This document shows, piece by piece, positions 2,400-32,433 of a stretch of 64,000 nt of DNA; the stretch's first letter is position 1, and each line of letters opens with the position of its first letter. The DNA is from an uncultured Clostridia bacterium. Lineage in GTDB: Bacteria; Acidobacteriota; Aminicenantia; UBA2199. The position numbers were made by a program, and so were the translations under genes. The notes under the pieces are model-generated. The model searched no databases and was not told the origin of the DNA. It was given only the letters and a program-made list of their open reading frames with translations. The stretch covers positions 2,917 through 66,916 of the forward strand of contig CAYZNT010000014.1 of assembly GCA_964479735.1 (NCBI GenBank), read 5' to 3'.

Positions 2400-3680
2400 T
2401 CACTCCGCCGTGCCGATCCGCAGCGAAAGCAGCGTCGACGGGTCGAGGCCGGCGCGCAGCATGGCGTTCGCCTCCGCGGCGCCCACCGCGTTGAGACGGG
2501 CCTCCCACTCGTTGGTCAGGCGCCAGGAGAGGCCGATGCCTTCCAGGAGGCTCCAGAGGGCGACGCGCCGCTCGCGCGACTCCACCCTCCTCCAGAATTC
2601 CGCCAGGGCGTAGGCCCGGGCGGCTGCCACCCCCGCTTCGTCGATGCCTTGGGCGCGGATCTCGGCCAGGCGCTCATCGAGCGCCGTCGCGGCGGCGCCG
2701 GGGTCGCCGCCGGTCTTCAGCGACAGGTGCAGCAGGGCGGCGGTGCGCAGGGGCTGCAGGCTGGCTTCGACGTCGTAGGTCAGGTGCAGGCGGTCGCGCA
2801 GCGTCCACAGCCGGCTGCCGACGCCCCGGCCCAGCCACGACTCGAGCAGGGTGGCGGTGAAGTAGGCGTGGGCGTCCAGGGCCGGCAGGCGGGCGCTGCG
2901 CGCCAGCAGCGATTCGCCCGCGAGTCGTTCGGCGCCCGCCTCCGGGGCAGGAGCGGACGGGCCGGCCGCCGCCGGGGGGGGGCCGTCCGGGGCGGCGGGC
3001 AGACGGGCGAAGTGACGGGCGAGCCGCTCGTGCAGTTCGTCGGCGGCCAGGTCGCTGACGGCCAGCAGCACCAGGTTGCCGCCATGGAACGAGTGGCGGT
3101 GGCAGGCCTGCACGTCGGGGCGGCGGATGGCCCGGCGCGACGCCTGGGTGCCGAAGGCCGCGCGGCCATAGCCGGCGGAACCGAACGCGGCGGTCGCCTG
3201 CAGGCGGCGCATGCGCGACTCCAGGTCGTCGTCGCCCAGCTTCTCGGCGGTCGCCATCTGCCCCTTGATGGAATCGATGCGCAGGTCCGAGAAGAGCGGG
3301 CGGGCGATGCTCCTGGCCAGGATGGCCAGCGCCGGCTCGAGGTCGGGGGTGTTGACCCGCAGGGTGACGGTGGAGTAGTCCGCGGCGGTCTGCAGGTGAT
3401 AGGTGCAGCCCAGCTGCAGCAGGTGGCGCAGCCGGCCCTCCTCGGGGACTTCCAGCGCCAGGCGGGCGGTCAGGTAGGCCAGCCCCTCCTTGCCGGCGGG
3501 GTCGGACGCGCCGCCGCCGCGCACCAGCAGGTGCACCACCGTGAACGCCGCCGCCGCGTCGTGCTGGCAGACGACCCGCAGCCCGTTGTCCAGCACGCGC
3601 TCCTGCGGTTCGGCAGGCTGCCCGCGGGCGAGGACCGGCAGGGCCAGCAGCCCCAGCAGCACGGCGCAGCGGCGGCTCAT
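2400..3680 (-). CDS. M16B family peptidase-like protein, probable non-catalytic partner subunit
   Basis: The start MSRRCAVLLGLLALPVLA is a signal peptide; its ATG is the complement of 3678-3680 and overlaps the upstream M16 stop by 4 nt. It has the M16 fold, but YLTARL replaces the HxxEH zinc motif. The N-terminal extension of the 923-aa track ORF is low-complexity and was not called. Confidence 0.7.
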   Translation of the reverse strand: MSRRCAVLLGLLALPVLARGQPAEPQERVLDNGLRVVCQHDAAAAFTVVHLLVRGGGASDPAGKEGLAYLTARLALEVPEEGRLRHLLQLGCTYHLQTAADYSTVTLRVNTPDLEPALAILARSIARPLFSDLRIDSIKGQMATAEKLGDDDLESRMRRLQATAAFGSAGYGRAAFGTQASRRAIRRPDVQACHRHSFHGGNLVLLAVSDLAADELHERLARHFARLPAAPDGPPPAAAGPSAPAPEAGAERLAGESLLARSARLPALDAHAYFTATLLESWLGRGVGSRLWTLRDRLHLTYDVEASLQPLRTAALLHLSLKTGGDPGAAATALDERLAEIRAQGIDEAGVAAARAYALAEFWRRVESRERRVALWSLLEGIGLSWRLTNEWEARLNAVGAAEANAMLRAGLDPSTLLSLRIGTAE

Positions 3681-5014
3681 CGTTCCACCGGCACCACGGC
3701 CACGGTCACCCACTTGCGGCCGGCGAAGCACGTCCCGCCCACGCGGCGCAGGTCGGCGGAGCGCACCGCCTCCAGGCTGTCGTCCCGGCTGTCGGCTCTG
3801 TCGTCGCCGAGCAGCAGGAACCGGGCGGCGGCCGAGCTGAGGTTGAGGGCCGACTCGCCATAACTGCCCCCCTCCATGGCCATCTGCCGGCGGGCGGAAT
3901 CCAGCAGGTCGAACGCCTGCGCCTGGTAGGCCGGCGGGAAGTCGAGGCGGCTGAAGTTGAGCTGGCGGATGCCGGACAGGAAACGCGCCAGCCTTCCCTG
4001 CACGTTGCGCACCTGGCGCGCCGGCAGCAGCAGGTGCAGCAGCATGGCGCCGCCGTGGCGCATGGGCAGGTAGCGCATCTCCAGGCGGTCGACCTCCTCG
4101 AAGGGGCCGCGCAATGCGCCCGCCAGCAGCGGGTTGAGGCCGCGGCCGAGAATGAAGGCCAGAACCCCGAGAGCCGCCCGGTCCGGGTCGTTGTAGCCGC
4201 CGACCGGCCAGGCGACGAACAGGTGGGCCTGGCGGACGTCGAGCCGGATCTCGGCCGACTGGCTTTTCGTCAATGCCGGAGGCGGCGGCAGCGGGGCGGC
4301 GGCGGGCTCCGCCCGGCCGCCTTCCCAGGTGCGCCGGATTTCCGCCTCCATGTCGGCGGCGGCGAAGTCGCCCACCAGCGCCAGCGAACAGCGGGCCGGC
4401 ACCAGCAGGCGGCGGTGCAGCTCCTCCATCTCGGCCAGGGTGGCGGCGGCGATCGCCTGCGGGTCGCCCTCGATCGGGCGGCCGTAGGGATGGGAGCCGA
4501 ACAGCAGCTGCAGCGCCCGCAGCCTGCCGGCGGTGGCGGGCTCGTCGCGCAGCTGGGCGATCTCCTCGGCGAGGATGCGCTTCTCGGCCTCCAGGTGCTC
4601 CGCCTGCAGGCGCGGAAGGAAAACCTGCTCGCGCAGTCGGGCCAGCGCCCAGGCGGCGTGGGCGGCGGGGGCGCTGTACTCGAAGGTGATCAAATCGACG
4701 TCGGTGTGGGCGTTGGCCTGGACGCCGCGCGCGCGAAGCCGGGCCAGGCGCTCCGGCCCGGTCGCCTCGCGGGTGGCTCCGAAGAGCAGCAGGTGCTCCA
4801 GCAGGTGCGGCCAGCCCGCCGGCGCGGCGGCGGCGGGGGAGAGGTCCGCCGCCAGGGTCATGGCGCAGAGCGGCAGGTCGCGCTTCTCCTGCAGGATGAC
4901 CCGCAGCCCGTTGTCGAGGGTGAAGCGACGGAACCCCGTCTCCCCATCCGCGATGGCGGCCAGGGAGAGGGAGAACAGCGCACCGGCGATCAGGCCCCGC
5001 TGGCTGGCGATCAT
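3677..5014 (-). CDS. M16 family zinc metallopeptidase (pitrilysin/insulinase-like), active subunit
   Basis: 445 aa with an N-terminal signal-like region and the inverted zinc-binding motif HLLEH (HxxEH). It is translationally coupled to the downstream M16 paralog. Confidence 0.8.
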   Translation of the reverse strand: MIASQRGLIAGALFSLSLAAIADGETGFRRFTLDNGLRVILQEKRDLPLCAMTLAADLSPAAAAPAGWPHLLEHLLLFGATREATGPERLARLRARGVQANAHTDVDLITFEYSAPAAHAAWALARLREQVFLPRLQAEHLEAEKRILAEEIAQLRDEPATAGRLRALQLLFGSHPYGRPIEGDPQAIAAATLAEMEELHRRLLVPARCSLALVGDFAAADMEAEIRRTWEGGRAEPAAAPLPPPPALTKSQSAEIRLDVRQAHLFVAWPVGGYNDPDRAALGVLAFILGRGLNPLLAGALRGPFEEVDRLEMRYLPMRHGGAMLLHLLLPARQVRNVQGRLARFLSGIRQLNFSRLDFPPAYQAQAFDLLDSARRQMAMEGGSYGESALNLSSAAARFLLLGDDRADSRDDSLEAVRSADLRRVGGTCFAGRKWVTVAVVPVER

Positions 5015-5151
5015 GACCGGATTCTAGCACGGGGCGGCCGAAGCGGCAATCCGGGAACCGTGGCCGGCCGGCATTCCGTTCCGCGCGGCTTGAGATCAAC
5101 CTGACGAATGCGGTATTATTCATGTGCTGCTCAACCCCAAGGAGGTTTTTC

Positions 5152-6711
5152 ATGCAGACCTGGAAACGCATATCGCTGATCCTGGCATTGGCCGTCGCCT
5201 TAGCGCCCCTGTGGGCCGGCGGCGCGCCGTCCGATCCCCAGCCGCTGGCCAGCCTGCTGGTCGGTCCCTACGGCATCGACTGGCTGCCGAAGGTCAGCGC
5301 CGGCTCGTTCACCCTGAGAGTCGCCGGCCCCACCGGCGTCTTCCTGGCCAAGACCTTCCCCGGCGGCAAGACCCCGCGCTTCGAGGTTTCGGACCTCGCC
5401 GGCTCCTGCCCGGACGGCATCTACACCTGGGAGTTGCGGGCCAGCCCTCAGGGTGCGCCCGCGGTCCGCGGTGACGAGACGGGCGTGCCACCCGCGGGGG
5501 CCCCGGAAGCCCTCTCCCAGTCCGGCCACTTCCGCGTCTTGGGCGGCTCGATCCTGGTCCCGGCGGCCAAGGAGCCGCGGCTGGCCGGACCGCTGGACGT
5601 GGTGCACGCCGACGACGTGATCGTCACCGGGTCGCTCTGCATCGGCTACGACTGCGCCACGGACGGATCGGAGGATTTCGGCTTCGACACCATCAAGATG
5701 AAGGAAAACAACCTCCAGATCTTCTTCGACGACACCTCGACGACCGCCGGCTTCCCGGCCAACGACTGGCGCCTCATCGCCAACGACTCCGCCAGCGGCG
5801 GCGGCAACTACTTCTCGATCGCAGACGCGACCAACTCCAGGGTGCCGTTCAAGATCGAGGCCGGCGCCCCCACCAGCGCCCTCTACGTCGACGACTCCGG
5901 CCGGGTCGGCCTGGGCACCGCCACTCCCGTTCTCGACCTGCACATCCTCTCCGGCAATACCCCCTCCATCCGCCTCGACCAGGACACGACGTCCGGCTGG
6001 ACGGCCCAGGTTTGGGACATCGCTGCCAACGAGTCCAATTTCTTTTTACGCGACACCACCGGCGGCTCGAAACTGCCCTTCCGCATCCAGCCCGGGGCTC
6101 CCACCAACACGCTGACGATGAAGTCGACCGGCTACGTGGGCATCGGCACCTGGTCGCCCGAGAGCCACCTGGAAATCGAGGCCACCGGCGCCAACGTCGT
6201 GCTGGCCGTCCAGCGCACGGACGGCGCCACCATGAAATTGAGCGCCATGGGCAGCTCGGGGCAGATCGGCACGGTCACCGAGCACGCCCTGAACTTCATG
6301 ACCAACAACGTCAAGCGGCTGTCGGTGGGCGCCTCGACGGGCAACGTCGGCATCGGCGTGACGTCCCCGACCTACCCCCTGCACATGGCCAGCGGCGCCT
6401 ATTGTTCGGCCGGCGGGGCGTGGACCAATGCCTCGAGCATCGCCTTCAAGCAGAACGTCCAGGCCCTGGGGCTGGCGGATGCGCGCCGGGCGCTGGCCGA
6501 CCTGCGTCCGGTGTCGTTCGCCTACAAGGCGGACCCCGGCGAGGAGCACCTGGGGTTCATCGCCGAGGAGGTGCCGGAACTGGTGGCCACGGGTGACCGC
6601 CAGGGCCTGAGCCCGATGGACATCGTGGCGGTGCTGACCCGGGTGGTGCAGGAACAGCAGAAGACCATCGCCGAGCTGCGCGAACGCGTGGAGCAGCTGG
6701 AAAAGCGGTAA
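5152..6711 (+). CDS. secreted fibre-like protein with a C-terminal intramolecular chaperone (peptidase S74 / tail-fibre ICD) domain, paralog 1
   Basis: An RBS (aaggagg) precedes the ATG at 5152, and the signal peptide is MQTWKRISLILALAVALAPLWAGGA. The C-terminus matches the endosialidase/tail-fibre chaperone domain (SSIAFKQNVQAL...LRPVSFAYK...HLGFIAEEVPELV...MDIVAVLTRVVQEQQKTIAELRERVEQLE). The middle has two ~80-aa beta-rich internal repeats (FDDTS..ANDW..GAPT..VGLGT). Confidence 0.7.
   Translation: MQTWKRISLILALAVALAPLWAGGAPSDPQPLASLLVGPYGIDWLPKVSAGSFTLRVAGPTGVFLAKTFPGGKTPRFEVSDLAGSCPDGIYTWELRASPQGAPAVRGDETGVPPAGAPEALSQSGHFRVLGGSILVPAAKEPRLAGPLDVVHADDVIVTGSLCIGYDCATDGSEDFGFDTIKMKENNLQIFFDDTSTTAGFPANDWRLIANDSASGGGNYFSIADATNSRVPFKIEAGAPTSALYVDDSGRVGLGTATPVLDLHILSGNTPSIRLDQDTTSGWTAQVWDIAANESNFFLRDTTGGSKLPFRIQPGAPTNTLTMKSTGYVGIGTWSPESHLEIEATGANVVLAVQRTDGATMKLSAMGSSGQIGTVTEHALNFMTNNVKRLSVGASTGNVGIGVTSPTYPLHMASGAYCSAGGAWTNASSIAFKQNVQALGLADARRALADLRPVSFAYKADPGEEHLGFIAEEVPELVATGDRQGLSPMDIVAVLTRVVQEQQKTIAELRERVEQLEKR
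6211..6674 (+). repeat. 464-bp perfect direct repeat, copy 1 (3' end of fibre paralog 1)
   Basis: I found no mismatches against 7917-8380 (offset 1706 bp) by direct comparison. The ORF track shows identical sub-ORFs 6428..6610 / 8134..8316 and 6132..6353 / 7838..8059. Confidence 0.85.
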
Positions 6712-6737
6712 CCCACGAGCCTTCGCCGCGAATTCAT

Positions 6738-6782
6738 CCCCGGGCGGATGATGTCCCGTCCGCCCGGGGGAGGCGGTTTCTT
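6738..6782 (+). terminator. GC-rich hairpin downstream of paralog 1
   Basis: ccccgggcgga (6738-6748) pairs with tccgcccgggg (6759-6769), giving an 11-bp stem and 10-nt loop, followed by a ggcggtttctt T-containing tail. The next gene has its own promoter TTGAAA (6781-6786), 17-nt spacer, TACAAT (6804-6809). Confidence 0.4.
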
Positions 6783-6866
6783 GAAAAACCGGTTGCGTCC
6801 CGGTACAATCCCCCTTGCTTTCTGGTCCGCCTGGTTCCGATAGCGAATACGCAGGAGGTAGCGGAG

Positions 6867-8447
6867 ATGAAAACGTGGATCGGGTTGATTTTGGTTTGCA
6901 TCCTGCTTCTCGCCTCAGCGAATGGCCTGGCCGCCGCCGACCGTAACCCGGTGGCAGGATCCCTGGTCGGCCCGTATGGAATCGACTGGCTGCCCAAGGT
7001 CGGATACGGGGCGTTGCGCCTGACCGTTTCCGGTCCGCAGGGGGTCTTCCTGACAAAGAGTTTCCCGGGCGGCAAGACCCCGCGCTTCGAACTCAGCGAG
7101 ATCAAGGAGGGATGCCCGGACGGCATCTATACGTACGAACTGCGGGTGCAGGCTGCTGCGCGCCCGGAAAACCGCGATGGAACGCCCGATGCGTCCATCG
7201 CCGATACCCAGCGTCCGCTCATTCAGTCCGGCCATTTCCGCATCCGCGGCGGAGCGATCGTCGTCGCTTCCGGGGTGGAGGCCGGTACCGCGCCGCGCGA
7301 CGGCATCCTGGCCACCTACAACGAGGACTTGTACGTCAAGGGTTCTCTTTGCGTCGGCACCGACTGCGCCGATCCGGAGACATGGAACTACGACGTGATC
7401 CGGATGAAGGAGAACAACCTGCGCATCCATTTCGACGACACCAGCAGCACATCCTCGTTCCCGGCCAACGACTGGCGCATCGTCCTCAACGACTCCTCAG
7501 ACGGCGGCGGCAACTATTTCGCCGTGGAGGATTCGACGTCCGGGGACGTGCCGTTCACGATCGAGGCCGGCGCCCCCGCGAACTCGCTCTTCGTGGAAGA
7601 CTATGGCCGCATCGGCCTGAAGACCTCGACCCCGGCGGTCGAGCTGCACATGGTCGACGGCGACTCGCCGGCTGTGCGCCTGGACCAGGACACCACCTCG
7701 GGCTGGACGGCGCAGGCGTGGGACCTCGTCGGCAACGAAAGCAACTTCTTCGTGCGGGACGTCACCAACTCAGCCAGAATCCCTTTCCGCATCCAGCCGG
7801 GGACGCCTTCGAGCACCCTGAGCCTCAAGTCCTCGGGCTACGTGGGCATCGGCACCTGGTCGCCGGAATACAACCTGGAGGTCGAAGGCACGTCTGCCAA
7901 CGTCACCCTGGGCGTGCAGCGCACGGACGGCGCCACCATGAAATTGAGCGCCATGGGCAGCTCGGGGCAGATCGGCACGGTCACCGAGCACGCCCTGAAC
8001 TTCATGACCAACAACGTCAAGCGGCTGTCGGTGGGCGCCTCGACGGGCAACGTCGGCATCGGCGTGACGTCCCCGACCTACCCCCTGCACATGGCCAGCG
8101 GCGCCTATTGTTCGGCCGGCGGGGCGTGGACCAATGCCTCGAGCATCGCCTTCAAGCAGAACGTCCAGGCCCTGGGGCTGGCGGATGCGCGCCGGGCGCT
8201 GGCCGACCTGCGTCCGGTGTCGTTCGCCTACAAGGCGGACCCCGGCGAGGAGCACCTGGGGTTCATCGCCGAGGAGGTGCCGGAACTGGTGGCCACGGGT
8301 GACCGCCAGGGCCTGAGCCCGATGGACATCGTGGCGGTGCTGACCCGGGTGGTGCAGGAACAGCAGAAGACCATCGCCGATCAGCGCCGGGAGCTGGCCG
8401 AACTCGGCCGGCGCGTGGCCGAACTGGAGAGCAGGGAGACGCGGTAG
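6867..8447 (+). CDS. secreted fibre-like protein with a C-terminal intramolecular chaperone (peptidase S74 / tail-fibre ICD) domain, paralog 2
   Basis: An RBS (aggagg) precedes the ATG, and the signal peptide is MKTWIGLILVCILLLASANGLAAA. It shares domain order with 5152..6711 (conserved N-terminal domain VGPYGIDWLPKV...FPGGKTPRFE...CPDGIYT.ELR, two internal repeats). The C-terminal ICD is nucleotide-identical to paralog 1 over 464 bp, then diverges in the last ~20 codons. Confidence 0.7.
   Translation: MKTWIGLILVCILLLASANGLAAADRNPVAGSLVGPYGIDWLPKVGYGALRLTVSGPQGVFLTKSFPGGKTPRFELSEIKEGCPDGIYTYELRVQAAARPENRDGTPDASIADTQRPLIQSGHFRIRGGAIVVASGVEAGTAPRDGILATYNEDLYVKGSLCVGTDCADPETWNYDVIRMKENNLRIHFDDTSSTSSFPANDWRIVLNDSSDGGGNYFAVEDSTSGDVPFTIEAGAPANSLFVEDYGRIGLKTSTPAVELHMVDGDSPAVRLDQDTTSGWTAQAWDLVGNESNFFVRDVTNSARIPFRIQPGTPSSTLSLKSSGYVGIGTWSPEYNLEVEGTSANVTLGVQRTDGATMKLSAMGSSGQIGTVTEHALNFMTNNVKRLSVGASTGNVGIGVTSPTYPLHMASGAYCSAGGAWTNASSIAFKQNVQALGLADARRALADLRPVSFAYKADPGEEHLGFIAEEVPELVATGDRQGLSPMDIVAVLTRVVQEQQKTIADQRRELAELGRRVAELESRETR
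7917..8380 (+). repeat. 464-bp perfect direct repeat, copy 2 (3' end of fibre paralog 2)
   Basis: Identity begins at cagcgcacggacggcgcc and ends at aagaccatcgccga. The flanks on both sides diverge. Confidence 0.85.
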
Positions 8448-8475
8448 GGATCCCGGCGGGAGTCGGGAGGGGCAA

Positions 8476-10290
8476 TTGGCGGACGATCGGGACGCGGAAG
8501 TGGCGGAGAGGCAGGTGCCCGGCATATCCGGAAGGGGGCTGGACGGCAGGGGAGTCCGTCGGGCGCTTCCCCTGATGTTGGTGCTGCTGGCCGCCGCCTG
8601 CGCCCGCCCCTCCCTGCGCCAGGCGGAGACCTGGCGCGCCGGCCACGACTACGACAAGGCGCTGGCGCGCTACCTGAAGGCGCTGCGTGAAAGGCCCCAG
8701 GACATCCAGCTGAAGCTGGCCGTGGACGGCCTGCTGAAGGAGGCCGCCGCCTGGTACGGGGCCCGCGCCGCCCAGCTGGAGCAGGAGGGCCATGCCGCCC
8801 TCGCGCTCCAGCTCTACCGCAAGGCGCTGGAGTACGATCCCGGCGACCGTCGCACCCGACAGAGGCTGCAGGAGCTGCAGCGGCCGGGGGAAGGGGTCGA
8901 GACCATCGAGAGCCAGGCGCACGGGGCCGAGCTGGCGGTGAGCGTGCCGCCGTCCCTGGCCAGCCCGGAGCGGATCGACGTGGACTTCCGCCACAAGACC
9001 GGGTTGCTGGCCATCCTGCGCGTGCTGGCCCAGAGCGGCGGGGTCAACCTTCTGTTCGACCCGGATCTGGCCGACAAGCCGGTGGCGGTCACCCTGCGCC
9101 AGGTCACCCTGCGCGAGGCGCTGGACCGGATCTGCCAGATCTCCGAGAGCCGCTACTTCGTGCTGGACGGGCGCAACATCCTGGTGGCGCCGGACACCGA
9201 GAGCGCCCGGTCCCGCTACCAGGAGCTGGTCGTCAAGAACATCTACTTCTCCAACGTCGAGGCCGACGAGGCCAAGCGCATCATGGAGCAGGCCGCCCGG
9301 CTCCAGCGGCTGATCGTCAACAAGCCGAGCAACTCGCTCATCGTCGCCGATTCCGCCGAGAACGTCGTCCTGGCCGAAAGGCTCGCCCGCTTCATCGACA
9401 AGCGCAAGGGCGAGGTGGAGATCGACGTCGAGATCATGGAGGTGGACCGCAAGCGGCTGAAGCAGTACGGCACCGAGCTGTCGTCGTGGAGCGTCGGCGC
9501 CGCCCTGAGCGGAAGCGGGGGCGGCCTCTCCGCGGACGCGCTCCGGGCGGTCGACCTGTCGGCCGACGTCCTGCTGTCGGTGCCGCAGGCGGTCTGGCGC
9601 TTCATGGCCACCGTCACCGATTCGAAGATCCTGGCCCAGCCCAAGGTGCGCGGCATGGACAAGGAGCGGGTGGAGATCCAGCTCGGCGAAAAGCGCCCCA
9701 TCCCGACCACCACGTTCGTTCCCCTCTCCCAGGGCAGCCTCAACCAGCAGCCGATCACCTCCTACAGCATGACCGACGTCGGCATCACCCTGAACATCAC
9801 CCCGACCATCCATCTCAACGAGGAGGTGACCCTCGAGCTGGTGTTCAGCCTGACCTACGTCATCGACATCGGCAGCGCGACCCTGCCGCCGACGCTGGGC
9901 AACCGCCGGGTGACCACCCGGCTGCGCCTGCGCACCGGCGAGACGGGCATCATCGCCGGCTTGATGCGCGGCTCCACCACCACCTCGCGCACCGGCGTGC
10001 CGCTGCTCAACGACATCCCCCTGCTGCGCGACCTCTTCTCGTCCAACCGGCGCGAGCACGAGCGCACCGACATCCTGCTGAGCATCACCCCCCGCATCCT
10101 GCGCATGCCCGAGATCACCCGTGGCGACCTCGAGCCCCATTTCATCGGCACCGAGGCCCGGCCCGGGCTGCAGCGCGCCCGGGAGGCCCCCCCGGCCCCG
10201 CCTCCCCCCGCCCCGGCCCCGGTGAAGAAGGGGAAACCCGGGCGCAAGAAGGCGAACCCGGACGCGGCCCAGGCGGCTCCGCCGGGGTGA
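8476..10290 (+). CDS. secretin family outer-membrane channel lipoprotein (PilQ/GspD-like) with an N-terminal TPR region
   Basis: A possible TTG start at 8476 follows a gggagg RBS; the alternative ATG is at 8575. A lipobox-like LLAAAC is present. It has TPR-like helices (YDKALARYLKALRER, LALQLYRKALEYDP), an N0/STN-like domain (IDVDFRHKTGLLAILRVLAQSGGVNLLFDP), a Secretin_N domain (SLIVADSAENVVLAERLARFIDKRKGEVEIDVEIMEV) and the secretin C-domain (VPLLNDIPLLRDLFSS...ILLSITPRIL). It starts 28 nt after fibre paralog 2. Confidence 0.75.
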   Translation: MADDRDAEVAERQVPGISGRGLDGRGVRRALPLMLVLLAAACARPSLRQAETWRAGHDYDKALARYLKALRERPQDIQLKLAVDGLLKEAAAWYGARAAQLEQEGHAALALQLYRKALEYDPGDRRTRQRLQELQRPGEGVETIESQAHGAELAVSVPPSLASPERIDVDFRHKTGLLAILRVLAQSGGVNLLFDPDLADKPVAVTLRQVTLREALDRICQISESRYFVLDGRNILVAPDTESARSRYQELVVKNIYFSNVEADEAKRIMEQAARLQRLIVNKPSNSLIVADSAENVVLAERLARFIDKRKGEVEIDVEIMEVDRKRLKQYGTELSSWSVGAALSGSGGGLSADALRAVDLSADVLLSVPQAVWRFMATVTDSKILAQPKVRGMDKERVEIQLGEKRPIPTTTFVPLSQGSLNQQPITSYSMTDVGITLNITPTIHLNEEVTLELVFSLTYVIDIGSATLPPTLGNRRVTTRLRLRTGETGIIAGLMRGSTTTSRTGVPLLNDIPLLRDLFSSNRREHERTDILLSITPRILRMPEITRGDLEPHFIGTEARPGLQRAREAPPAPPPPAPAPVKKGKPGRKKANPDAAQAAPPG

Positions 10291-10351
10291 GCCCGCGGCG
10301 TTGACCGGGCCCGGTTTTTCTGTTACAACGGCGCCGACAGGAGGTGTCCGA

Positions 10352-11143
10352 ATGAAGATGCCGCTGTTCCAGGTCGATGCCTTCACCGAAAATCCGTTTC
10401 AGGGAAACCCCGCCGCCGTCTGTCTGCCGCCGAAGCCCTTGCCGGACGAGACGCTGCAGAAGATCGCCGCCGAGATGAACCTTTCCGAAACGGCGTTCCT
10501 GTGGCCAACCGCCGACGGCTGGCACCTGCGCTGGTTCACCCCGCGGGTGGAGGTCGACCTGTGCGGCCATGCCACCCTGGCCAGCGCGACCGTCCTGTAC
10601 GAGCGGGGGCTGCTGGAGAAGACGAGCGTGGCGCGATTCCAGACGCGCAGCGGCCTGCTGAGCGCGGCCTGGCGCAAGGGCTGGATCGAGCTGGACTTCC
10701 CCCGCCGCGAGGTGTCGGTGATGAGGATCCCGCAGCGGATCGTGCGCGCGGTGGGCGTGGCGCCGCTGGCCACCGGCGTATCCGGCGACAATTTCCTCAT
10801 CGAGACCACCAGCCAGGAGGAGGTCGCCCGGGCCCGGCCCGATTTCGTTTCCCTGGCCCGCCTCACCGATCACGGCGTGATCCTCACCAGCCACTACGCG
10901 GCCCCGGAATACGATTTCGTGTCCCGTTTCTTCGCCCCGGCCATCGGCATCAACGAGGACCCGGTGACCGGTTCGGCCCACTGCAGCCTGGCCCCCTATT
11001 GGGCCAAGCGCCTCGGCAAGAGCGAGATGACCGCCTACCAGTCTTCGGCCCGCGGGGGGGTGCTGCGGCTCCGGCTGGAGGCCGAGCGGGTCGCCATATC
11101 CGGCCGGGCGGTGCTGGTCTTCTCCGGCGAGTTGACGGTGTAA
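10352..11143 (+). CDS. PhzF family phenazine-biosynthesis-like isomerase
   Basis: The ATG at 10352 follows a caggagg RBS. The N-terminus MKMPLFQVDAFTENPFQGNPAAV is typical of PhzF, and the protein is ~263 aa. Confidence 0.8.
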   Translation: MKMPLFQVDAFTENPFQGNPAAVCLPPKPLPDETLQKIAAEMNLSETAFLWPTADGWHLRWFTPRVEVDLCGHATLASATVLYERGLLEKTSVARFQTRSGLLSAAWRKGWIELDFPRREVSVMRIPQRIVRAVGVAPLATGVSGDNFLIETTSQEEVARARPDFVSLARLTDHGVILTSHYAAPEYDFVSRFFAPAIGINEDPVTGSAHCSLAPYWAKRLGKSEMTAYQSSARGGVLRLRLEAERVAISGRAVLVFSGELTV

Positions 11144-11315
11144 GCCCGTCGGCCCGGGGTCCACCGGGCGACGAGCCGTCCGGAGCTCGGCCGGACGGCG
11201 CCTGGGCACGTGTTCCCGGCCATTTCCGCCGGCAGGGCATGGCCGGGCGACGAGCCCCCCGCGGCCGCGAGGGACGCATGTTGACAATACTTCCCGCATC
11301 GGCTAGCCTGCCGCC

Positions 11316-12167
11316 ATGAGACAGGCGCGTTACACCTACCCCGGCGCGTTCCACCACGTGATCAGCCGCGGGTGCGGCGACGTGTTCGCGGTTGCCGCGG
11401 ACCGGCGTGTTTTTCTCGCGATCCTCGGCGAGCGGGTGCGCCTGATGCGCATCCGGCTGGCGGCCTGGTCCCTGGCGAGCGACGGCTACGAGCTGGTGCT
11501 GGAGAACAGCGCCGGCCGCATGAGCGAGTTCCTGAAAGGGCTGAACGCCGCCTTCGCCATCCGCTACCGCGCCCGCCATGGAGGCGGAGGGCGGGTGTTC
11601 CGGGACCGCTTCTCCTCCGTCCTGATCCAGGACGAGCCGCACCTGCGCCTGGCCATCCTGCATGTCGCGCAGCGGGCGCCGCGGCGCCTTCCCACCGCCG
11701 CCTCCTGGTCGAGCCTCGCCGAGTTCCTGTCCGAAAAGGGGCCGGGCGTGACCGACGTGCCGTTCGTCAGCGCCCTGTGGGGGGGAAGAGAGAACCTGCG
11801 CAGGGCGCTGACCGCCCCGGCGGGCGCCGGGCTGCCTTCCTTTCCGACCACCTTCGGGCGCATCGCCGGCCACAAGGGCGCCCCGCCCGCCGCCCGCCTG
11901 GAACGGCGCGAAGCCCCGCCCGGATTCGCTTCGCGGGAGGCCGTGATGCGCCACTTCGCCGCCCGCCACGGGCTCGACGGCCCGCTGCCGCTGAAGACGC
12001 GTGCCGGCCGTCGCCTTCGCGCCGACCTGCTGCTCGAGCTCCGCGAAGAGTGCGGCCTGACCTACCGCGACATCGCCCGCCTGCCGGAGTTCGCCGACCT
12101 GAGCCCCGCCTCGCTGGGCAAGATCTACCAGGACGCGCGGCGGCGCCGGGGGGACCGCCGTGGATAG
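11316..12167 (+). CDS. RAYT-like (IS200/Y1-transposase-like) domain fused to a DnaA C-terminal HTH domain; probably a domesticated, non-catalytic transposase-like protein
   Basis: The N-terminus YTYPGAFHHVISRG resembles the REP-associated tyrosine transposase start. The expected HuH position reads GYELVLE, so the motif is degenerate. The C-terminus LREECGLTYRDIARL...SPASLGKIY is DnaA_C-like. GC-rich palindromes lie upstream. Confidence 0.55.
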   Translation: MRQARYTYPGAFHHVISRGCGDVFAVAADRRVFLAILGERVRLMRIRLAAWSLASDGYELVLENSAGRMSEFLKGLNAAFAIRYRARHGGGGRVFRDRFSSVLIQDEPHLRLAILHVAQRAPRRLPTAASWSSLAEFLSEKGPGVTDVPFVSALWGGRENLRRALTAPAGAGLPSFPTTFGRIAGHKGAPPAARLERREAPPGFASREAVMRHFAARHGLDGPLPLKTRAGRRLRADLLLELREECGLTYRDIARLPEFADLSPASLGKIYQDARRRRGDRRG

Positions 12168-12906
12168 CCCGGGACGGGTCGCTCCCCACGAGGAGGACTT
12201 CACCCTGGCCCCGGGCGCGCCCCCCTGGCTGGGCGTCATGGATCGCATGCAGGAGGCGGCCGGCCGCCATGCCGCCCGCCTCGGCGTCGGCCTGCCGCAG
12301 CTGGCGGCCAGGGGGATCACCTGGGTCCTGGTGCGCAACCATGTTCGATTCGCCCGCCCGCCGCGGCTTGACGAGCCGCTGCACCTCGCCACCTGGCCGA
12401 CCGGCCGGCGCGGCCTGCTGGCCGTGCGCGACTTCCGGCTCTGCGATGGCAGCGGGGAGGAGGTCCTGCGCGCCACCTCCGCCTGGCTGCTGATGCGGCT
12501 GGACACCCGCCGCCCGGTGCGCCTCGACCCGCACCTGCCCGACTACCTGGATCTTCCCGGCCCGGCGCTGGCGGACGATTTTGAGCCCCTGCCCGAGGCG
12601 GGTGGGGACACCGCCCCCGCCGTCGTGGTGCAGCCCGCCGACATCGACGTCAACGACCACGTCAACAACATCGTCTACCTGGAATGGGCGCTGCGGGCGG
12701 CGCCGTCGTTTACGACCGGCCGCTGCCCGGGGGAGCTGGAAGTGGCCTTTCTGGGGGAGGCGCGGCTGGGAGACGAGGTGCGCTGCCGCACGAGGTCGGA
12801 GGAGGGGGCGGGGGGGGCGCTCCTGCTGCAGAGCCTGGAGAACGGGGCCGGCCGGGAGCTGACGCGATTGCGCTCGTTCTGGCCGGCCCGGGGAAAAATC
12901 GTTTGA
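12160..12906 (+). CDS. acyl-ACP thioesterase family protein
   Basis: Hot-dog thioesterase motifs (ITWVLVRNHVRF, NDHVNNIVYLEW) consistent with Acyl-ACP_TE. It overlaps the preceding gene by 8 nt. Confidence 0.65.
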   Translation: MDSPGRVAPHEEDFTLAPGAPPWLGVMDRMQEAAGRHAARLGVGLPQLAARGITWVLVRNHVRFARPPRLDEPLHLATWPTGRRGLLAVRDFRLCDGSGEEVLRATSAWLLMRLDTRRPVRLDPHLPDYLDLPGPALADDFEPLPEAGGDTAPAVVVQPADIDVNDHVNNIVYLEWALRAAPSFTTGRCPGELEVAFLGEARLGDEVRCRTRSEEGAGGALLLQSLENGAGRELTRLRSFWPARGKIV

Positions 12907-12994
12907 CGGCCAACGACATGTTGGCAGGGCCGGGGGATTCTGCTATGATGGGTCCTTTTTGCGGGGGCCCGCCCGCCGCGACAGGAGGAGCGCC

Positions 12995-13273
12995 ATGAAG
13001 AGGGATGTGGTGGCCATCATCGTCGAACAGCGCAACGAAACGGCGGCCCGGGTGCAGCAGGTGCTGACCGGCTGGGGCTGTTGGATCAAGACGCGGCTGG
13101 GCCTGCATGACGGCGTACTCGACCGGTGCGCACCGTCCGGGCTGATCATCCTGGAGATGGTCGGCGAGGACGACCGGATCGCCGAGTGCGTGCGCAAGCT
13201 GAACCTGATCAAGGGGGTGCAGGCGAAGCGCGTCCGCCTGGAACTGCCGGCGGAGGGGGAGGCGGGGGCATGA
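12995..13273 (+). CDS. TM1266-like small regulator (putative iron-only hydrogenase system regulator family)
   Basis: 92 aa; the ATG at 12995 follows a caggagg RBS. The fold is ACT/NikR-like (VVAIIVEQRNETAARVQQVLTGWGCWIKTRLGLH). The promoter is TTGGCA-17-TATGAT at about 12926-12954. Confidence 0.5.
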   Translation: MKRDVVAIIVEQRNETAARVQQVLTGWGCWIKTRLGLHDGVLDRCAPSGLIILEMVGEDDRIAECVRKLNLIKGVQAKRVRLELPAEGEAGA

Positions 13274-14475
13274 ACATCCTGGTCATCAACAGCGGCAGCT
13301 CCTCGATCAAGTTCCAGCTGATGGACATGGACACGCACGCCCCGCGATGCCGGGGGCTGCTGGAGAGGATCAGCCTGGCCGGCGGCATCTTCACCTACGA
13401 GCCGGCGGGCCGGGAAAGGATCAAGACCGGTTGCGACATCCCCAACCACGCCGCCGGCATCCGCATGGTGCTGGACGCCGTCTGCAGCCCGGAGGCGGGC
13501 GTCATCCGCTCCCTGGACGAGATCGCGGCCGTCGGCCACCGCATCGTCCACGGCGGCGAGCGGATCAAGAAGCCGGAAGTGCTGGGCGACGAGGTGGTGG
13601 CCATCGTCCGCGAGTGCAGCAAGCTGGCCCCCCTCCACAACCCGCCCAACCTGACCGGTTTCGAGGCGGTGCGAGACCTCCTTCCCGGGGTGCCCCACGT
13701 CGGCGTCTTCGACACCGCCTTCCACGCCACCATGCCGCCGCACGCCTACGTCTATGCCCTCGACTACGATCTGTACGAGCGCCACGGCATCCGCCGCTTC
13801 GGCTTCCACGGCACCTCGCACCAGTACGTGGCCATGCGCGCCGCCGCCATGCTGGGCAAGCCGCTGGACAATTTCCACTGCGTCACCTGCCACATGGGCA
13901 ACGGGGTCTCCCTGACCGCCGTCCGCGGCGGGCGCTCGGTGGACACCACGCTCGGCTTCGGCACCATGTGCGGCGTGCCGATGGGCACCCGCGCCGGGGA
14001 CGTCGACCCGGCCATCATCCTGCACCTGATCGACCAACTGGGCATGAGCAGCGCCGAGGTGCACGACCTGCTCTACCGCCGTTCGGGGCTGAAGGGGCTT
14101 GGCGGCCAAACGCCCGACATGCGGGACGTCGAGGCGGCCGCCGCCGCCGGCGACCCGCGCGCGCGCCTGGCGCTGGACGTGTTCTGCCACGCCGCCCGCA
14201 AGTACGTCGCCGCCCTGGCCACCAGCCTGGAGGGGCGGCTCGACGCGGTGGTGTTCACCGCCGGCATCGGCGAGAACTCGCCCGCCACCCGCGCCGGAGT
14301 CTGCCGGGGCCTGGAGTTCATGGGCGTGCACCTGGACCCGTCCCGGAACGAGGTACGCGGCCGCGAGGCGGTCGTCTCGGCCGGCTCCTCGCCGGTCGCG
14401 GTGTTGGTCGTGCCGACCAACGAGGAGCTGATGATCGCCCTCGAGACCCAGCGGGTGGTGAGCGGCACGACCTGA
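13270..14475 (+). CDS. ackA: acetate kinase
   Basis: MNILVINSGSSSIKFQL at the N-terminus, HNPPNL and GTSH motifs, 401 aa. It overlaps the previous gene at ATGA. Confidence 0.9.
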   Translation: MNILVINSGSSSIKFQLMDMDTHAPRCRGLLERISLAGGIFTYEPAGRERIKTGCDIPNHAAGIRMVLDAVCSPEAGVIRSLDEIAAVGHRIVHGGERIKKPEVLGDEVVAIVRECSKLAPLHNPPNLTGFEAVRDLLPGVPHVGVFDTAFHATMPPHAYVYALDYDLYERHGIRRFGFHGTSHQYVAMRAAAMLGKPLDNFHCVTCHMGNGVSLTAVRGGRSVDTTLGFGTMCGVPMGTRAGDVDPAIILHLIDQLGMSSAEVHDLLYRRSGLKGLGGQTPDMRDVEAAAAAGDPRARLALDVFCHAARKYVAALATSLEGRLDAVVFTAGIGENSPATRAGVCRGLEFMGVHLDPSRNEVRGREAVVSAGSSPVAVLVVPTNEELMIALETQRVVSGTT

Positions 14476-14491
14476 GCGGCGGATCCCGGTC

Positions 14492-16114: not shown

Positions 16115-16228
16115 AGCCTCCCGATCGCCTCCAACGGCGGGGGGGCGCCCCGTCCCGGCTCCGCCTGCGGGCGGCCCGGAACGCCCGACCCGCGAGCCGG
16201 AATCAGGTTATTTATTTAACAAAAAAAT

Positions 16229-16257
16229 TTGCGTCCAGCCGAAAATTCCGATATAAT
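16229..16257 (+). promoter_or_regulatory. sigma70-type promoter for the hdr/flx cluster
   Basis: TTGCGT (16229-16234), 17-nt spacer, TATAAT (16252-16257). It is preceded by an A/T-rich UP-like tract (ttatttatttaacaaaaaaattt) in an otherwise 70% GC genome. Confidence 0.55.
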
Positions 16258-16290
16258 GCGATTTCCTCATTCGGTTCTAGGAGACAATCC

Positions 16291-16872
16291 ATGCCGACTG
16301 AAGCCCCCCACCCGGAGGCGCGCCGCACCCTGGCGGTTCCCATCCTGCAGCAAACCGGAGTGAAAATCGCCCGCTGCTACCAGTGCGGCAAGTGCTCCGC
16401 CGGCTGCCCGCTGGCCGAGGAGATGGATTACCCGCCGAGCCTGATCCTGCGCATGCTGCAGACCGGCTCGCCGGGGCTGGAGGAGAAGGTGCTGCGCTCC
16501 TACACCATCTGGCTGTGCGTCACCTGCGAGACCTGCATCGCCCGCTGCCCGATGGAGATCGACATCCCCAGGATGATGGACTGGCTGCGCCAGGAGTCGT
16601 TGCGCCGCGGCTGGGCCCACCGGCGCGCCCGCGACATCGTCCGCTTCCACCGCGCCTTTCTCGACTCCATCCAGGTCACCGGCCGGCTCTACGAGATCGG
16701 GCTGATCGCCGACTACAAGGTGCGCTCGCGCCACCTCCTGCAGGACCTGCTGCTGGCGCCCAAGATGTTCTTCAAGGGCAAGCTGAGCCTGATCCCGGAG
16801 ATGATCCAGGACCGGCTGGGGATGGCGCGCATCTTCGGCAAGACCCTGAACCGCGAGGAGGAACGGTCATGA
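16291..16872 (+). CDS. hdrC: heterodisulfide reductase subunit C
   Basis: Two 4Fe-4S motifs (CYQCGKCSAGCP, CVTCETCIARCP). The ATG follows a ggagacaatcc RBS. Confidence 0.8.
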   Translation: MPTEAPHPEARRTLAVPILQQTGVKIARCYQCGKCSAGCPLAEEMDYPPSLILRMLQTGSPGLEEKVLRSYTIWLCVTCETCIARCPMEIDIPRMMDWLRQESLRRGWAHRRARDIVRFHRAFLDSIQVTGRLYEIGLIADYKVRSRHLLQDLLLAPKMFFKGKLSLIPEMIQDRLGMARIFGKTLNREEERS

Positions 16873-17753: not shown

Positions 17754-17755
17754 AC

Positions 17756-20199: not shown

Positions 20200-20211
20200 G
20201 AGGAGGACGCC

Positions 20212-21015: not shown

Positions 21016-21019
21016 GACG

Positions 21020-22039: not shown

Positions 22040-22040
22040 A

Positions 22041-32300: not shown

Positions 32301-32433
32301 CACCTCCTCGCTGCTGCTCACCCTGCTGCTGGTGCCGGTGGTCTACCTCAAGCTGGAGGGGGTGCGCCTTCGCTTCAACCGCTGGCTGAAGCGCCATGCG
32401 GTGCGGGTGGAGAACGGCGAAGGGCAGGCCTGA
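29306..32433 (+). CDS. RND family efflux permease (AcrB-like), interrupted by a single-nucleotide frameshift near 30360
   Basis: Track ORFs 29306..30415 and 30322..32433 are consecutive AcrB segments. Joining them needs one extra nt in ctggtcttcc|gcacagcatc to restore ...LVF-L-HSIRNAVIVMVAIPCSL... The remainder is full-length with 12 TMs. Confidence 0.75.

What the first reader, a model, noticed from the sequence alone, without database searches (positions are those of the whole stretch)
5015..10290. Candidate undescribed secretin-associated fibre system: two secreted tail-fibre-chaperone-domain proteins followed by a stand-alone TPR-secretin
Two tandem paralogs (5152..6711, 6867..8447) each combine a Sec signal peptide, a conserved ~70-aa N-terminal domain, two beta-rich internal repeats, and a C-terminal phage-tail-fibre/endosialidase-type intramolecular chaperone autoproteolysis domain (peptidase S74). 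That domain drives trimerisation and self-cleavage of fibrous proteins. There is no phage context: no capsid, terminase, baseplate or integrase genes. Only 28 nt after the second paralog sits a secretin lipoprotein with N-terminal TPR helices, and I see no cognate T2SS, T4P or Tad assembly genes in 64 kb. A translationally coupled secreted M16 peptidase pair is divergently adjacent. A speculative reading is a minimal module in which S74-domain fibres are exported or anchored through a dedicated secretin. I am not aware of a described secretin system with S74-domain fibre cargo.
Basis: partly seen in the sequence, partly recalled or inferred. Interest (0 to 1): 0.8.

Follow-up and report, generated by a model that had tools for sequence, protein, structure and literature searches.

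The report
Surface fibre genes beside stand-alone secretin
Two genes for secreted, self-trimming fibre proteins of phage tail-fibre type sit just upstream of, and probably in one transcript with, an outer-membrane secretin channel that has none of its usual partner genes nearby; the same pairing recurs in related uncultured bacteria, so the channel may be how such fibres reach the cell surface.

Summary
Window 5152-6711 and 6867-8447 encode two 68%-identical proteins. Each has a signal peptide, an FN3-like N-domain, a beta-helix fibre body and a C-terminal Peptidase_S74 chaperone-protease with an intact S-S-x-x-x-K motif. Window 8476-10290 encodes a TPR-N0-N1-secretin lipoprotein. No T2SS, T4P, Tad or phage genes lie in the 64 kb or just outside it.

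The fibres are not a new kind. Their only solved relatives are the Bdellovibrio MAT fibres described in 2024, whose export route and surface anchor are still unknown.

The new part is the secretin. It belongs to short, stand-alone TPR-liposecretin clades of Acidobacteriota/Aminicenantes. These clades are distinct from a sister clade that sits in T2SSF-T2SSE-PilM-pilin operons. Stand-alone members always lie next to exported beta-rich proteins: S74 fibres in all 7 closest loci (at least 3 unrelated genomic contexts), otherwise a Big_1/PKD lipoprotein, often with 1.5-3.4k-aa giant proteins.

Most S74-family genes elsewhere have no adjacent secretin, and I could not check whole genomes for T2SS/T4P genes. 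My best reading is that the secretin is the outer-membrane conduit or dock for the fibres (about 0.45). It is a new variant of known kinds and moderately interesting.

The parts
5152..6711 (+). Fibre gene 1 (519 aa): signal peptide, FN3-like N-domain (about residues 30-137), beta-helix fibre body, C-terminal Peptidase_S74 (residues 428-477), coiled-coil tail.
   Evidence: PF13884 E 1.5e-8. The N-domain profile matches residues 30-137. It is 68% identical to fibre 2. PHROG tail-fibre hits cover the C-terminal half only.
6867..8447 (+). Fibre gene 2 (526 aa), same architecture. N-domain residues 26-135 (window 6942-7271), fibre body about residues 150-420, S74 residues 425-474 (window 8139-8288).
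   Evidence: Pfam. phmmer hits Bd2133 (8OND) at E 5.7e-5 and Bd3182 (8OJN). Foldseek hits 8OND at probability 1.0, plus 8OJN/8ONC and T5 4UW8. Models.
8139..8156 (+). Predicted autoproteolysis motif S425-S426-I-A-F-K430 of fibre 2. The equivalent in fibre 1 is S428-K433, at window 6433-6450.
   Evidence: S426 and K430 are invariant and S425 is at least 90% conserved in 57 family members. This matches the SDxxxK motif shown to self-cleave in Bd3182 (PMC10769870). Cleavage itself is inferred.
8476..10290 (+). Stand-alone liposecretin (604 aa; alternative start GTG 8512). Lipobox Cys42 (8599-8601), TPR about residues 51-131 (8626-8868), STN/N0 190-239 (9043-9192), Secretin_N 255-311 (9238-9408), secretin domain 378-543 (9607-10104), Pro/Lys-rich tail.
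   Evidence: Pfam. NCBIfam matches are all far below their cutoffs. PDB secretins match at E 1e-16 to 1e-7. TPR at E 1.8e-12. Cys42 is at least 90% conserved. phrog_1012 (pIV) at E 3e-38.
5090..5119 (+). Promoter-like site upstream of fibre gene 1, in the divergent region shared with the M16 operon.
   Evidence: 10 of 12 consensus matches. Three sites found against 0.3 expected. Consensus match only.
6760..6809 (+). GC hairpin plus T-run (6760-6776), followed by a promoter-like site (6781-6809), between the two fibre genes.
   Evidence: It suggests fibre 2 and the secretin form their own transcription unit. Consensus match only.
10303..10316 (+). Terminator-like hairpin 13 nt after the secretin stop codon. 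No promoter-like or terminator-like site lies between fibre 2 and the secretin.
6211..6674 (+). 464-nt tract exactly identical to 7917-8380 in fibre gene 2. It covers the last beta-helix turns and the S74 domain. The two genes are otherwise about 45-85% identical in 60-nt blocks of DNA.
   Evidence: Independent assemblies break at both edges of the tract (L001-L006 and L010). The repeat is therefore real, and recent gene conversion is the likely cause.

Best explanation
The two genes encode cell-surface fibres of the Bdellovibrio MAT type, not phage parts.

Shown by sequence: each protein has a Sec signal peptide, a conserved FN3-like N-domain, a beta-helix body homologous to Bd2133/Bd3182, and a Peptidase_S74 domain with the Ser/Lys motif intact.

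Inferred for the fibres: after Sec export the S74 domain drives trimerisation in the periplasm and then cuts itself off at S425/S426. This would leave a trimeric fibre of about 400 residues per chain.

The gene immediately downstream is on the same strand, with no terminator-like site in between. It encodes a lipidated secretin with a fused TPR domain and a minimal N0-N1 periplasmic part.

Inferred for the secretin: the lipid anchor and the fused pilotin-like TPR let it reach the outer membrane and assemble without a separate pilotin. Its pore is the route by which the folded fibre trimers cross the outer membrane, or the site where they are held at it.

This secretin belongs to clades that have left the T2SSF-T2SSE-PilM-pilin operon of their sister clade. 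Members of these clades are always encoded next to exported beta-rich proteins: S74 fibres, a Big_1/PKD lipoprotein, RHS proteins or adhesin-like giants.

What energises passage is unknown. It could be a type IV filament machine encoded elsewhere, or nothing of that kind.
For: - Domains.
- MAT relationship: phmmer hits only Bd2133 and Bd3182 in the PDB. Foldseek's top hit is 8OND at probability 1.0. The MAT architecture is described in PMC10769870.
- Catalytic motif is conserved.
- Operon signals: promoter-like sites before each fibre gene, none between fibre 2 and the secretin, and a terminator-like site right after the secretin.
- Adjacency: all 7 secretins at 52-61% identity have S74 genes 15-130 nt away on the same strand (window, L007, L011, L013, L014, L020, L115).
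- Independent contexts: the window, the L007 group, L020 and L115 share no other gene. In L020 and L115 the fibre genes follow the secretin.
- Family split: operon-type relatives (30-33% identity, 700-900 aa) have T2SSF, T2SSE and PilM upstream, at a fixed distance (T2SSE about 2.5-2.9 kb before the secretin), in every locus with at least 5 kb of upstream flank. A prepilin gene lies downstream in 8 of 12 of them.
- Stand-alone relatives (36-50% identity, 550-575 aa) have none of these genes. Instead, 15 of 18 loci have a lipoprotein Big_1/PKD gene 6-96 nt away. Giant signal-peptide proteins are often adjacent.
- An NJ tree separates the operon and stand-alone clades.
- No phage context.
Against: - Most S74-family loci have no secretin within 10 kb. 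This includes arrays of 4 to 6 or more copies (L009, L015, L016). Fibres can therefore be made without an adjacent secretin.
- The S74-linked secretins are one fairly narrow group (52-61% identity). Four of the seven loci are mutually syntenic, so there are only about 3-4 independent observations.
- Known secretins need an inner-membrane machine or a filament to open, and none is visible here. I could not search the rest of these genomes.
- No sequence signal shared by the fibres, the PKD partners and the giants was found.
- Promoter and terminator calls are consensus matches only.
- Everything about export is inference from gene order.
Confidence: 0.45

Rival explanations
1. The adjacency carries no export function. 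The secretin is an extra, 'orphan' outer-membrane component that plugs into a T4P/T2SS-like machine encoded elsewhere and serves that machine's usual cargo or pilus. The fibres reach the surface by some other route, as they must in the many genomes where no secretin lies next to them. The pairing persists through shared descent or co-regulation of envelope genes.
For: - Most fibre-family loci lack a nearby secretin.
- The neighbours of those loci are housekeeping or glycosyltransferase genes, with no alternative exporter.
- Operon-type TPR-secretins with a full T2SSE/F/PilM/pilin set exist in the same phylum, so a machine able to act in trans is plausible.
- From my own knowledge, not checked here: the orphan secretin XqhA of Pseudomonas aeruginosa works with the Xcp machinery.
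Against: - The pairing survives in at least 3 contexts that share no other gene, and with changed gene order.
- The wider stand-alone clades are always next to some exported beta-rich protein, often translationally coupled. That is not expected for a mere spare part.
- There is no terminator-like site between fibre 2 and the secretin.
Confidence: 0.3
2. The link is functional, but the secretin is not the conduit for the fibres. The fibres instead use the secretin ring, or a filament passing through it, as their attachment point via the conserved N-domain. Alternatively, fibres and secretin are two parts of an adhesion or contact apparatus that are simply co-expressed.
For: - The MAT paper states that the invariant N-domain 'would presumably tightly bind a surface element' that is still unidentified, and raises interplay with type IV pili (PMC10769870).
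- The N-domain is the hallmark of this roughly 520-aa family and always follows the signal peptide directly.
- In sister clades a conserved lipoprotein (Big_1/PKD) occupies the position next to the secretin. That looks like a partner rather than cargo.
Against: - The fibres would still have to cross the outer membrane somehow.
- Fibre copy number next to the secretin varies from 1 to 4. This looks like diversifying cargo rather than a stoichiometric part.
- There is no evidence of any interaction.
Confidence: 0.15
3. The module is a remnant of a prophage, tailocin or filamentous phage: a tail-fibre gene pair plus a pIV-like export secretin.
For: - PHROG tail-fibre families hit the C-terminal half of the fibres (E 1e-9 to 1e-13).
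- The secretin hits phrog_1012, the M13 protein IV family, at E 3e-38. It also shares pIV's minimal N0-N-secretin layout.
Against: - There are no capsid, terminase, baseplate, integrase, Zot/pI or replication genes in the 64 kb or in the flanks.
- The fibres carry Sec signal peptides, which cytoplasmically assembled phage fibres do not.
- The full-length family is absent from IMG/VR; only weak hits to the S74 domain appear. It is also absent from 50,697 phage genomes, which give 5 weak partial hits, while the secretin gives none.
- The secretin shares its TPR-lipoprotein N-terminus, over its full length, with cellular operon-type secretins of the same phylum.
Confidence: 0.03

Closest known systems
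Bdellovibrio bacteriovorus MAT (mosaic adhesive trimer) fibres, S74 subfamily, e.g. Bd3182 (Caulton et al. 2024, PMC10769870; PDB 8OJN, 8ONC, 8OND)
   Same: Both have a signal peptide, a conserved beta-rich N-domain directly after it, a trimeric beta-helix body with the G-x-VGIGT-x-P-x-x-LHV motif, and a C-terminal S74 chaperone-protease with an S-[D/S]-x-x-x-K motif. They are the only solved structures that phmmer finds and the top Foldseek hits.
   Different: The window proteins are about half the length (520 aa against about 800-1200 aa). Their N-domain is a roughly 105-aa FN3-like sandwich, and its homology to the roughly 130-aa Bdellovibrio N-domain could not be tested. The hosts are uncultured Aminicenantes/Acidobacteriota rather than a predator. 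The genes occur in tandem arrays and, in one clade, next to a secretin. The MAT paper does not contain the word secretin (0 occurrences).
Phage tail-fibre and endosialidase intramolecular chaperone domains (K1F endoNF 3GW6; T5 L-shaped tail fibre 4UW8)
   Same: The same Pfam family, PF13884, with the same Ser/Lys motif. 4UW8 appears among the Foldseek hits.
   Different: The window proteins have signal peptides, no phage context, and a family-specific N-domain. Phage genomes give only weak partial matches.
Operon-type TPR-secretins of Acidobacteriota found in this analysis (e.g. L126, L135)
   Same: They share the lipoprotein-TPR-N0-N-secretin layout and align over nearly the whole length at 30-33% identity.
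   Different: They are 700-900 aa long. They sit after T2SSF-T2SSE-PilM-T2SSM_b genes and, in 8 of the 12 loci checked, before a prepilin gene. The window secretin has none of these nearby and falls in a separate clade.
Self-piloting or lipidated secretins (HxcQ 'liposecretin' of Pseudomonas aeruginosa; T4bP secretins BfpB and TcpC) and TPR lipoprotein pilotins (PilF, PilW, Tgl)
   Same: An N-terminal lipid anchor on the secretin itself. The TPR module is of the kind pilotins use, here fused to the secretin. HxcQ as the known self-piloted exception is cited in PMC12475490. The rest is from my own knowledge.
   Different: Those secretins are encoded within complete T2SS or T4P clusters. No homology of the TPR part to a specific pilotin was shown (one search hits only generic and designed TPRs).
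Orphan secretin XqhA of Pseudomonas aeruginosa (from my own knowledge)
   Same: A secretin gene encoded away from any secretion operon.
   Different: XqhA is a GspD paralogue that substitutes for XcpQ. It has no TPR and no conserved adjacent cargo gene.
Filamentous-phage protein IV (f1/M13 pIV, PDB 7OFH)
   Same: A minimal N0 plus one N-domain plus secretin layout. phrog_1012 matches at E 3e-38 and 7OFH at E 4.9e-11.
   Different: pIV has no TPR or lipobox. No pI/pXI-like partner or other phage gene is present here. There is no tblastn match in 50,697 phage genomes.

Membership tests
Peptidase_S74 / intramolecular chaperone domain (PF13884) | Profile match above Pfam's gathering score | tested here: met
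   35.2 and 35.3 bits against a cutoff of 22, E 1.5e-8, for both paralogs.
Peptidase_S74 / intramolecular chaperone domain (PF13884) | Catalytic Ser and Lys in an S-D/S-x-x-x-K motif | tested here: met
   S425-S426-I-A-F-K430. S426 and K430 are invariant and S425 is at least 90% conserved in 57 homologues. The motif definition comes from PMC10769870.
Peptidase_S74 / intramolecular chaperone domain (PF13884) | Trimerisation-dependent self-cleavage that releases the chaperone | not testable with these tools
   Needs expression of the wild type and an S425A/S426A mutant, followed by SDS-PAGE.
MAT fibre family (Bdellovibrio) | Signal peptide directly followed by a conserved beta-rich N-domain | tested here: inconclusive
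   A signal peptide and a conserved FN3-like N-domain are present. Homology to the Bdellovibrio N-domain could not be tested: no solved structure exists, afdb50 was unavailable, and no Bdellovibrio full-length sequence was in hand.
MAT fibre family (Bdellovibrio) | Beta-helix fibre body homologous to Bd2133/Bd3182 | tested here: met
   phmmer E 5.7e-5 (8OND) and 1.2e-4 (8OJN). Foldseek probability 1.00 and 0.99. TM-scores are low because a monomer model of a trimer was used.
MAT fibre family (Bdellovibrio) | Surface-exposed trimeric fibre | not testable with these tools
   Only a monomer model could be made (pLDDT 67.6).
Secretin superfamily (PF00263) | C-terminal secretin domain above the gathering score | tested here: met
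   112 bits against a cutoff of 27.5, E 2.9e-32. 21 solved secretins match.
T2SS secretin GspD (TIGR02517 equivalog) | Score above the curated cutoff; N0-N1-N2-N3 domains; encoded with gspC-M | tested here: not met
   133 bits against a cutoff of 351. Only one STN and one Secretin_N domain, both sub-threshold. No gsp genes in 64 kb.
T4aP secretin PilQ (TIGR02515) | Score above the cutoff; AMIN domains; pilMNOPQ operon | tested here: not met
   100 bits against a cutoff of 284. No AMIN domain. No pilM/N/O/P or pilin genes nearby.
Tad RcpA, MSHA MshL, T3SS SctC, T4bP PilN, HofQ | Score above the curated cutoff | tested here: not met
   All matches are far below their cutoffs. RcpA 8ODN matches at only E 3.9e-11, in the shared secretin core.
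Stand-alone TPR-liposecretin clades (defined in this analysis) | Lipobox Cys plus TPR plus N0 plus one N-domain plus secretin, about 550-600 aa; no T2SSE/F, PilM or pilin gene in the flanks; an adjacent gene for an exported beta-rich protein | tested here: met
   The absence of partner genes was tested only within the flanks held: 8.5 kb plus 53.7 kb in the window, and about 6-13 kb on each side in the five other full-length S74-linked loci (L115 is a 3.3-kb contig). It was not tested genome-wide.
Prophage / tailocin / filamentous phage | Presence of other phage structural, replication or integration genes | tested here: not met
   None in the window or its flanks. The family is absent from viral collections apart from weak domain hits.

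The most novel reading that the evidence does not exclude
The short stand-alone TPR-liposecretins of Acidobacteriota/Aminicenantes form an autonomous outer-membrane export or display pathway. It would work without any type IV filament machine. A self-piloting secretin, sometimes with a Big_1/PKD lipoprotein partner, would let Sec-exported, periplasmically folded beta-rich proteins encoded next to it reach the cell surface. These include S74 MAT-like fibres, RHS toxins and multi-thousand-residue adhesins. The S74 fibre-secretin pair in this window would be its simplest form, and it would point to the missing export route for MAT-type fibres.
Probability: 0.15. Interest if true: 0.85.

Novelty: new variant of a known kind. 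Interest (0 to 1): 0.6.

Why it matters
How tail-fibre-like MAT adhesins leave the periplasm, and what holds them on the cell, was left open when they were described in Bdellovibrio in 2024 (PMC10769870). A conserved, probably co-transcribed secretin next to such fibres gives a concrete candidate that can be tested by heterologous co-expression.

The analysis also shows that one lineage of secretins has left its type IV filament operon. It now travels with variable large surface proteins: S74 fibres, a PKD lipoprotein, RHS proteins and giant adhesins. If these secretins act without a pilus or pseudopilus machine, that would add a new mode of secretin use. If they borrow a machine in trans, they show how cargo-specific secretins diversify.

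Either way the result helps annotate thousands of proteins labelled 'tail fiber domain-containing protein' in Acidobacteriota MAGs as cell-surface fibres rather than prophage remnants.

Tried and rejected
1. Prophage, tailocin or filamentous-phage remnant: rejected. No phage genes lie in or around the window. The viral contig scan found only weak S74-domain hits. tblastn against 50,697 phage genomes gave 5 weak partial hits for the fibre and none for the secretin.

2. The M16 peptidase pair as part of the module: rejected. There are no M16, PhzF or CorA homologues in any other fibre-secretin locus.

3. A shared targeting domain between the fibres and the other proteins found next to stand-alone secretins: not found. 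N-domain, body and S74 HMMs hit nothing in the PKD- or giant-type loci.

4. An alternative conserved exporter next to fibre genes that lack a secretin: none found. Recurrent neighbours are GMP synthase, a GT2 glycosyltransferase and unannotated ORFs within one syntenic Thermoanaerobaculia lineage.

7. Literature searches: secretin with Peptidase_S74, and intramolecular chaperone with secretin and tail fibre, each returned 0 papers; orphan or stand-alone secretin, and Aminicenantes with secretin, returned only irrelevant papers.

8. Source names for the window's proteins: none are on record.

Full report
**1. The observation**

The window has about 70% G+C. By third-position G+C, the real genes in the region are the following:
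- two M16 peptidase genes on the minus strand (2400-3680 and 3677-5014, with a 4-nt overlap);
- two paralogous genes on the plus strand (5152-6711 and 6867-8447);
- a third plus-strand gene (8476-10290).

Both paralogs hit Pfam Peptidase_S74 above the gathering score (35 bits against 22, E 1.5e-8) near their C-termini. They are 68% identical to each other. Each starts with a typical Sec signal peptide (read).

The third gene hits Secretin at E 2.9e-32. It also gives weaker STN, Secretin_N and TPR hits. The TPR region matches solved TPR proteins at E 1.8e-12. A lipobox Cys (LLAAAC, Cys42) is at least 90% conserved among homologues. Every NCBIfam secretin equivalog (GspD, PilQ, MshL, SctC, HofQ, PilN) scores far below its cutoff.

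Pfam scans of the other roughly 45 ORFs in the window found only housekeeping functions: Hdr/Mvh-like redox proteins, Trk, an RND efflux pump, H+-PPase, MotAB, peptidases, the glycine cleavage system, GlyQS and Fur. No prepilin motif occurs anywhere in the window. Independent assemblies of the same organism show two Ddl-like genes before the window and a TonB-dependent receptor, EF-G and QueA after it.

**2. What the fibre proteins are**

The family is large. At least 3391 proteins match, mostly about 520 aa long and aligned over their full length. They come from Aminicenantes, Thermoanaerobaculia and other Acidobacteriota, from Deferrimicrobium and from some Desulfobacterota, often with several copies per contig.

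In the PDB, phmmer finds only two relatives, both Bdellovibrio fibres: Bd2133 (8OND, E 5.7e-5) and Bd3182 (8OJN). The matches run through repeats of the form G-x-VGIGT-x-P-x-x-LHV. A monomer AlphaFold model had pLDDT 67.6 overall, with higher confidence in the N-domain and in residues 310-420. Its best Foldseek hits are again 8OND (probability 1.0), 8OJN/8ONC, and the phage T5 L-shaped tail fibre with its chaperone.

The paper describing these Bdellovibrio proteins (PMC10769870) defines the MAT family as follows:
- a signal peptide;
- a conserved beta-rich N-domain;
- a trimeric beta-helix;
- either an S74 chaperone-protease with an SDxxxK motif (self-cleavage shown for Bd3182) or another tip domain.

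The paper states that the surface element bound by the N-domain is unknown.

Viral collections contain only weak, partial matches. I conclude that these are cellular, Sec-exported, self-processing fibres of the MAT kind. They are new members of a known kind. One caveat remains: homology of the N-domain to the Bdellovibrio N-domain could not be tested.

**3. What the secretin is**

A protein search and a metagenome scan found several hundred full-length relatives. I called ORFs around 80 of them and classified the neighbours by Pfam and tblastn. They fall into three groups.

(a) Relatives at 30-33% identity, 700-900 aa. These lie behind T2SSF, T2SSE, PilM and T2SSM_b genes, at a fixed distance, in every locus with at least 5 kb of upstream flank. 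A prepilin gene lies downstream in 8 of the 12 loci checked. These are ordinary type IV filament secretins that happen to carry the same lipoprotein-TPR N-terminus.

(b) Relatives at 36-50% identity, 550-575 aa. These have none of those genes.
- 15 of 18 loci have a gene for a roughly 310-aa Big_1/PKD protein 6-96 nt away, often overlapping the secretin gene.
- All six PKD partners whose N-termini I inspected carry a lipobox.
- Very large signal-peptide proteins are often adjacent: an RHS/YD-shell protein of 2095 aa, a CARDB/A2M protein of 3227 aa, and others of 1.5-3.3k aa.
- Some longer stand-alone forms (700-800 aa) show the same pattern. One Aminicenantes example is followed after 55 nt by an adhesin-like protein of at least 3358 aa.

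(c) The seven closest relatives at 52-61% identity, including the window. All have S74 fibre genes as neighbours (1 to 4 copies), and none has a PKD partner or a T2SSE/F gene.

An unsupported NJ tree places the operon-type secretins in one clade and the stand-alone types in others. The S74-linked members fall on two sub-branches.

**4. Is the fibre-secretin adjacency meaningful?**

Four of the seven S74-linked loci (L007, L011, L013, L014) are syntenic with each other over 21 kb, so they count as one lineage. The window, L020 and L115 share only the fibre and secretin genes with that lineage and with each other.

Gene order also differs. Fibres lie upstream in the window and in the L007 group, on both sides in L020, and downstream in L115. 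All genes are on the same strand, with gaps of 15-130 nt.

In the window, promoter-like sites precede each fibre gene and a hairpin lies between the two. Nothing separates fibre 2 from the secretin, and a terminator-like hairpin follows the secretin. These are consensus matches only.

So the pairing is kept in at least three unrelated genomic settings. This argues for a functional link rather than inherited synteny.

Against a strict dependence, most fibre-family loci have no secretin within 10 kb, including arrays of six or more copies. Their other neighbours suggest no alternative exporter.

**5. Mechanism**

Shown: the domain content, the conserved catalytic motif, the lipobox and TPR on the secretin, the lack of local type IV filament genes, and the conserved adjacency.

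Inferred:
- the fibres are exported by Sec;
- they trimerise under control of the S74 domain, which then cuts itself off;
- the liposecretin, self-targeted by its lipid anchor and fused pilotin-like TPR, provides the outer-membrane passage or docking site.

Unknown: what opens the secretin gate. The rivals are:
- an orphan secretin working with a machine elsewhere, with no role for the fibres (0.30);
- the secretin as anchor rather than conduit (0.15);
- a phage remnant (0.03).

**6. Comparison and novelty**

The fibres match the MAT S74 subfamily in architecture and in body homology. The secretin is a member of the secretin superfamily but fails the curated thresholds of every named subfamily.

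It resembles lipidated secretins. HxcQ is cited in PMC12475490 as the known self-piloted secretin. It also shares its minimal layout with phage pIV. Its nearest full-length relatives, however, are cellular TPR-secretins of the same phylum.

I found no paper linking secretins with S74 fibres, and none describing such stand-alone secretins among the few returned for orphan or stand-alone secretins. The MAT paper does not contain the word secretin.

I therefore rate the finding as a new variant of known kinds. The most novel reading still open is an autonomous secretin-based display pathway for large beta-rich surface proteins. I give it probability 0.15.

**7. Verdict**

Interest is 0.6. The result is not a new class of molecule. 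It is a reproducible, previously undescribed gene association that offers a testable answer to how MAT-type fibres reach the cell surface, and it exposes a secretin lineage that has left its usual machinery.

Noticed in passing
window 6211-6674 and 7917-8380: A 464-nt tract is exactly identical between the two fibre genes, which are otherwise about 45-85% identical in 60-nt blocks of DNA. It covers the last beta-helix turns and the whole S74 domain, and recent gene conversion is the likely cause. Independent Logan assemblies break at both edges of the tract, so it is real and not an artefact of one assembly.
   Followed up: partly
L091, L092, L100-L105, L107-L109, L111, L112, L118, L177 (related loci): Stand-alone TPR-liposecretins are encoded next to a roughly 310-aa Big_1/PKD protein, a lipoprotein in all six cases inspected, and often next to giant signal-peptide proteins of 1.5-3.4k aa (RHS/YD-shell, CARDB/A2M/MG2, CarboxypepD_reg/Big domains). 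No T2SSE/F, PilM or pilin genes lie in the flanks. This may be an undescribed secretin-associated system in its own right.
   Followed up: partly
L126, L127, L129, L135, L141, L153, L158, L159, L162, L168 (related loci): Acidobacteriota type IV filament operons (T2SSF-T2SSE-PilM-...-T2SSM_b-secretin, followed by a prepilin gene in several of these loci) use a secretin with an N-terminal lipoprotein TPR domain rather than AMIN domains. In effect this is a pilotin-secretin fusion.
   Followed up: partly
window 2400-3680 and 3677-5014 (minus strand): A pair of M16 peptidase genes with signal peptides overlaps by 4 nt and is divergently transcribed from the first fibre gene. The pair is not conserved next to the fibre-secretin module in any other genome, so it is probably unrelated.
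   Followed up: yes
window 29306-30415 and 30322-32433: An AcrB-type RND pump is split into two overlapping ORFs that match profile positions 2-351 and 354-1020. This is a frameshift, a pseudogene or an assembly error within a TetR-OEP-HlyD-AcrB efflux cluster.
   Followed up: no
window 11316-12167: A 283-aa ORF with coding-like codon bias has no Pfam hit. It is conserved downstream of the secretin and PhzF genes in all same-species assemblies that extend that far. Its function is unknown.
   Followed up: no
window 16400-22880: A cluster of Fe-S/CCG-domain proteins, an HdrA-like flavoprotein (778 aa), an MvhD/FlpD protein, further ferredoxin-like proteins and an NAD-binding oxidoreductase. This suggests an electron-bifurcating Hdr/Mvh-like complex in this anaerobe.
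   Followed up: no
L009 (JGI Ga0180438_10000061), 10001-21584: At least six tandem full-length S74 fibre paralogs lie on one strand, with no secretin within the 10 kb held upstream. The array runs off the end of the held locus, so its downstream flank was not seen. Elsewhere, then, the fibre family expands into large arrays away from any secretin.
   Followed up: partly
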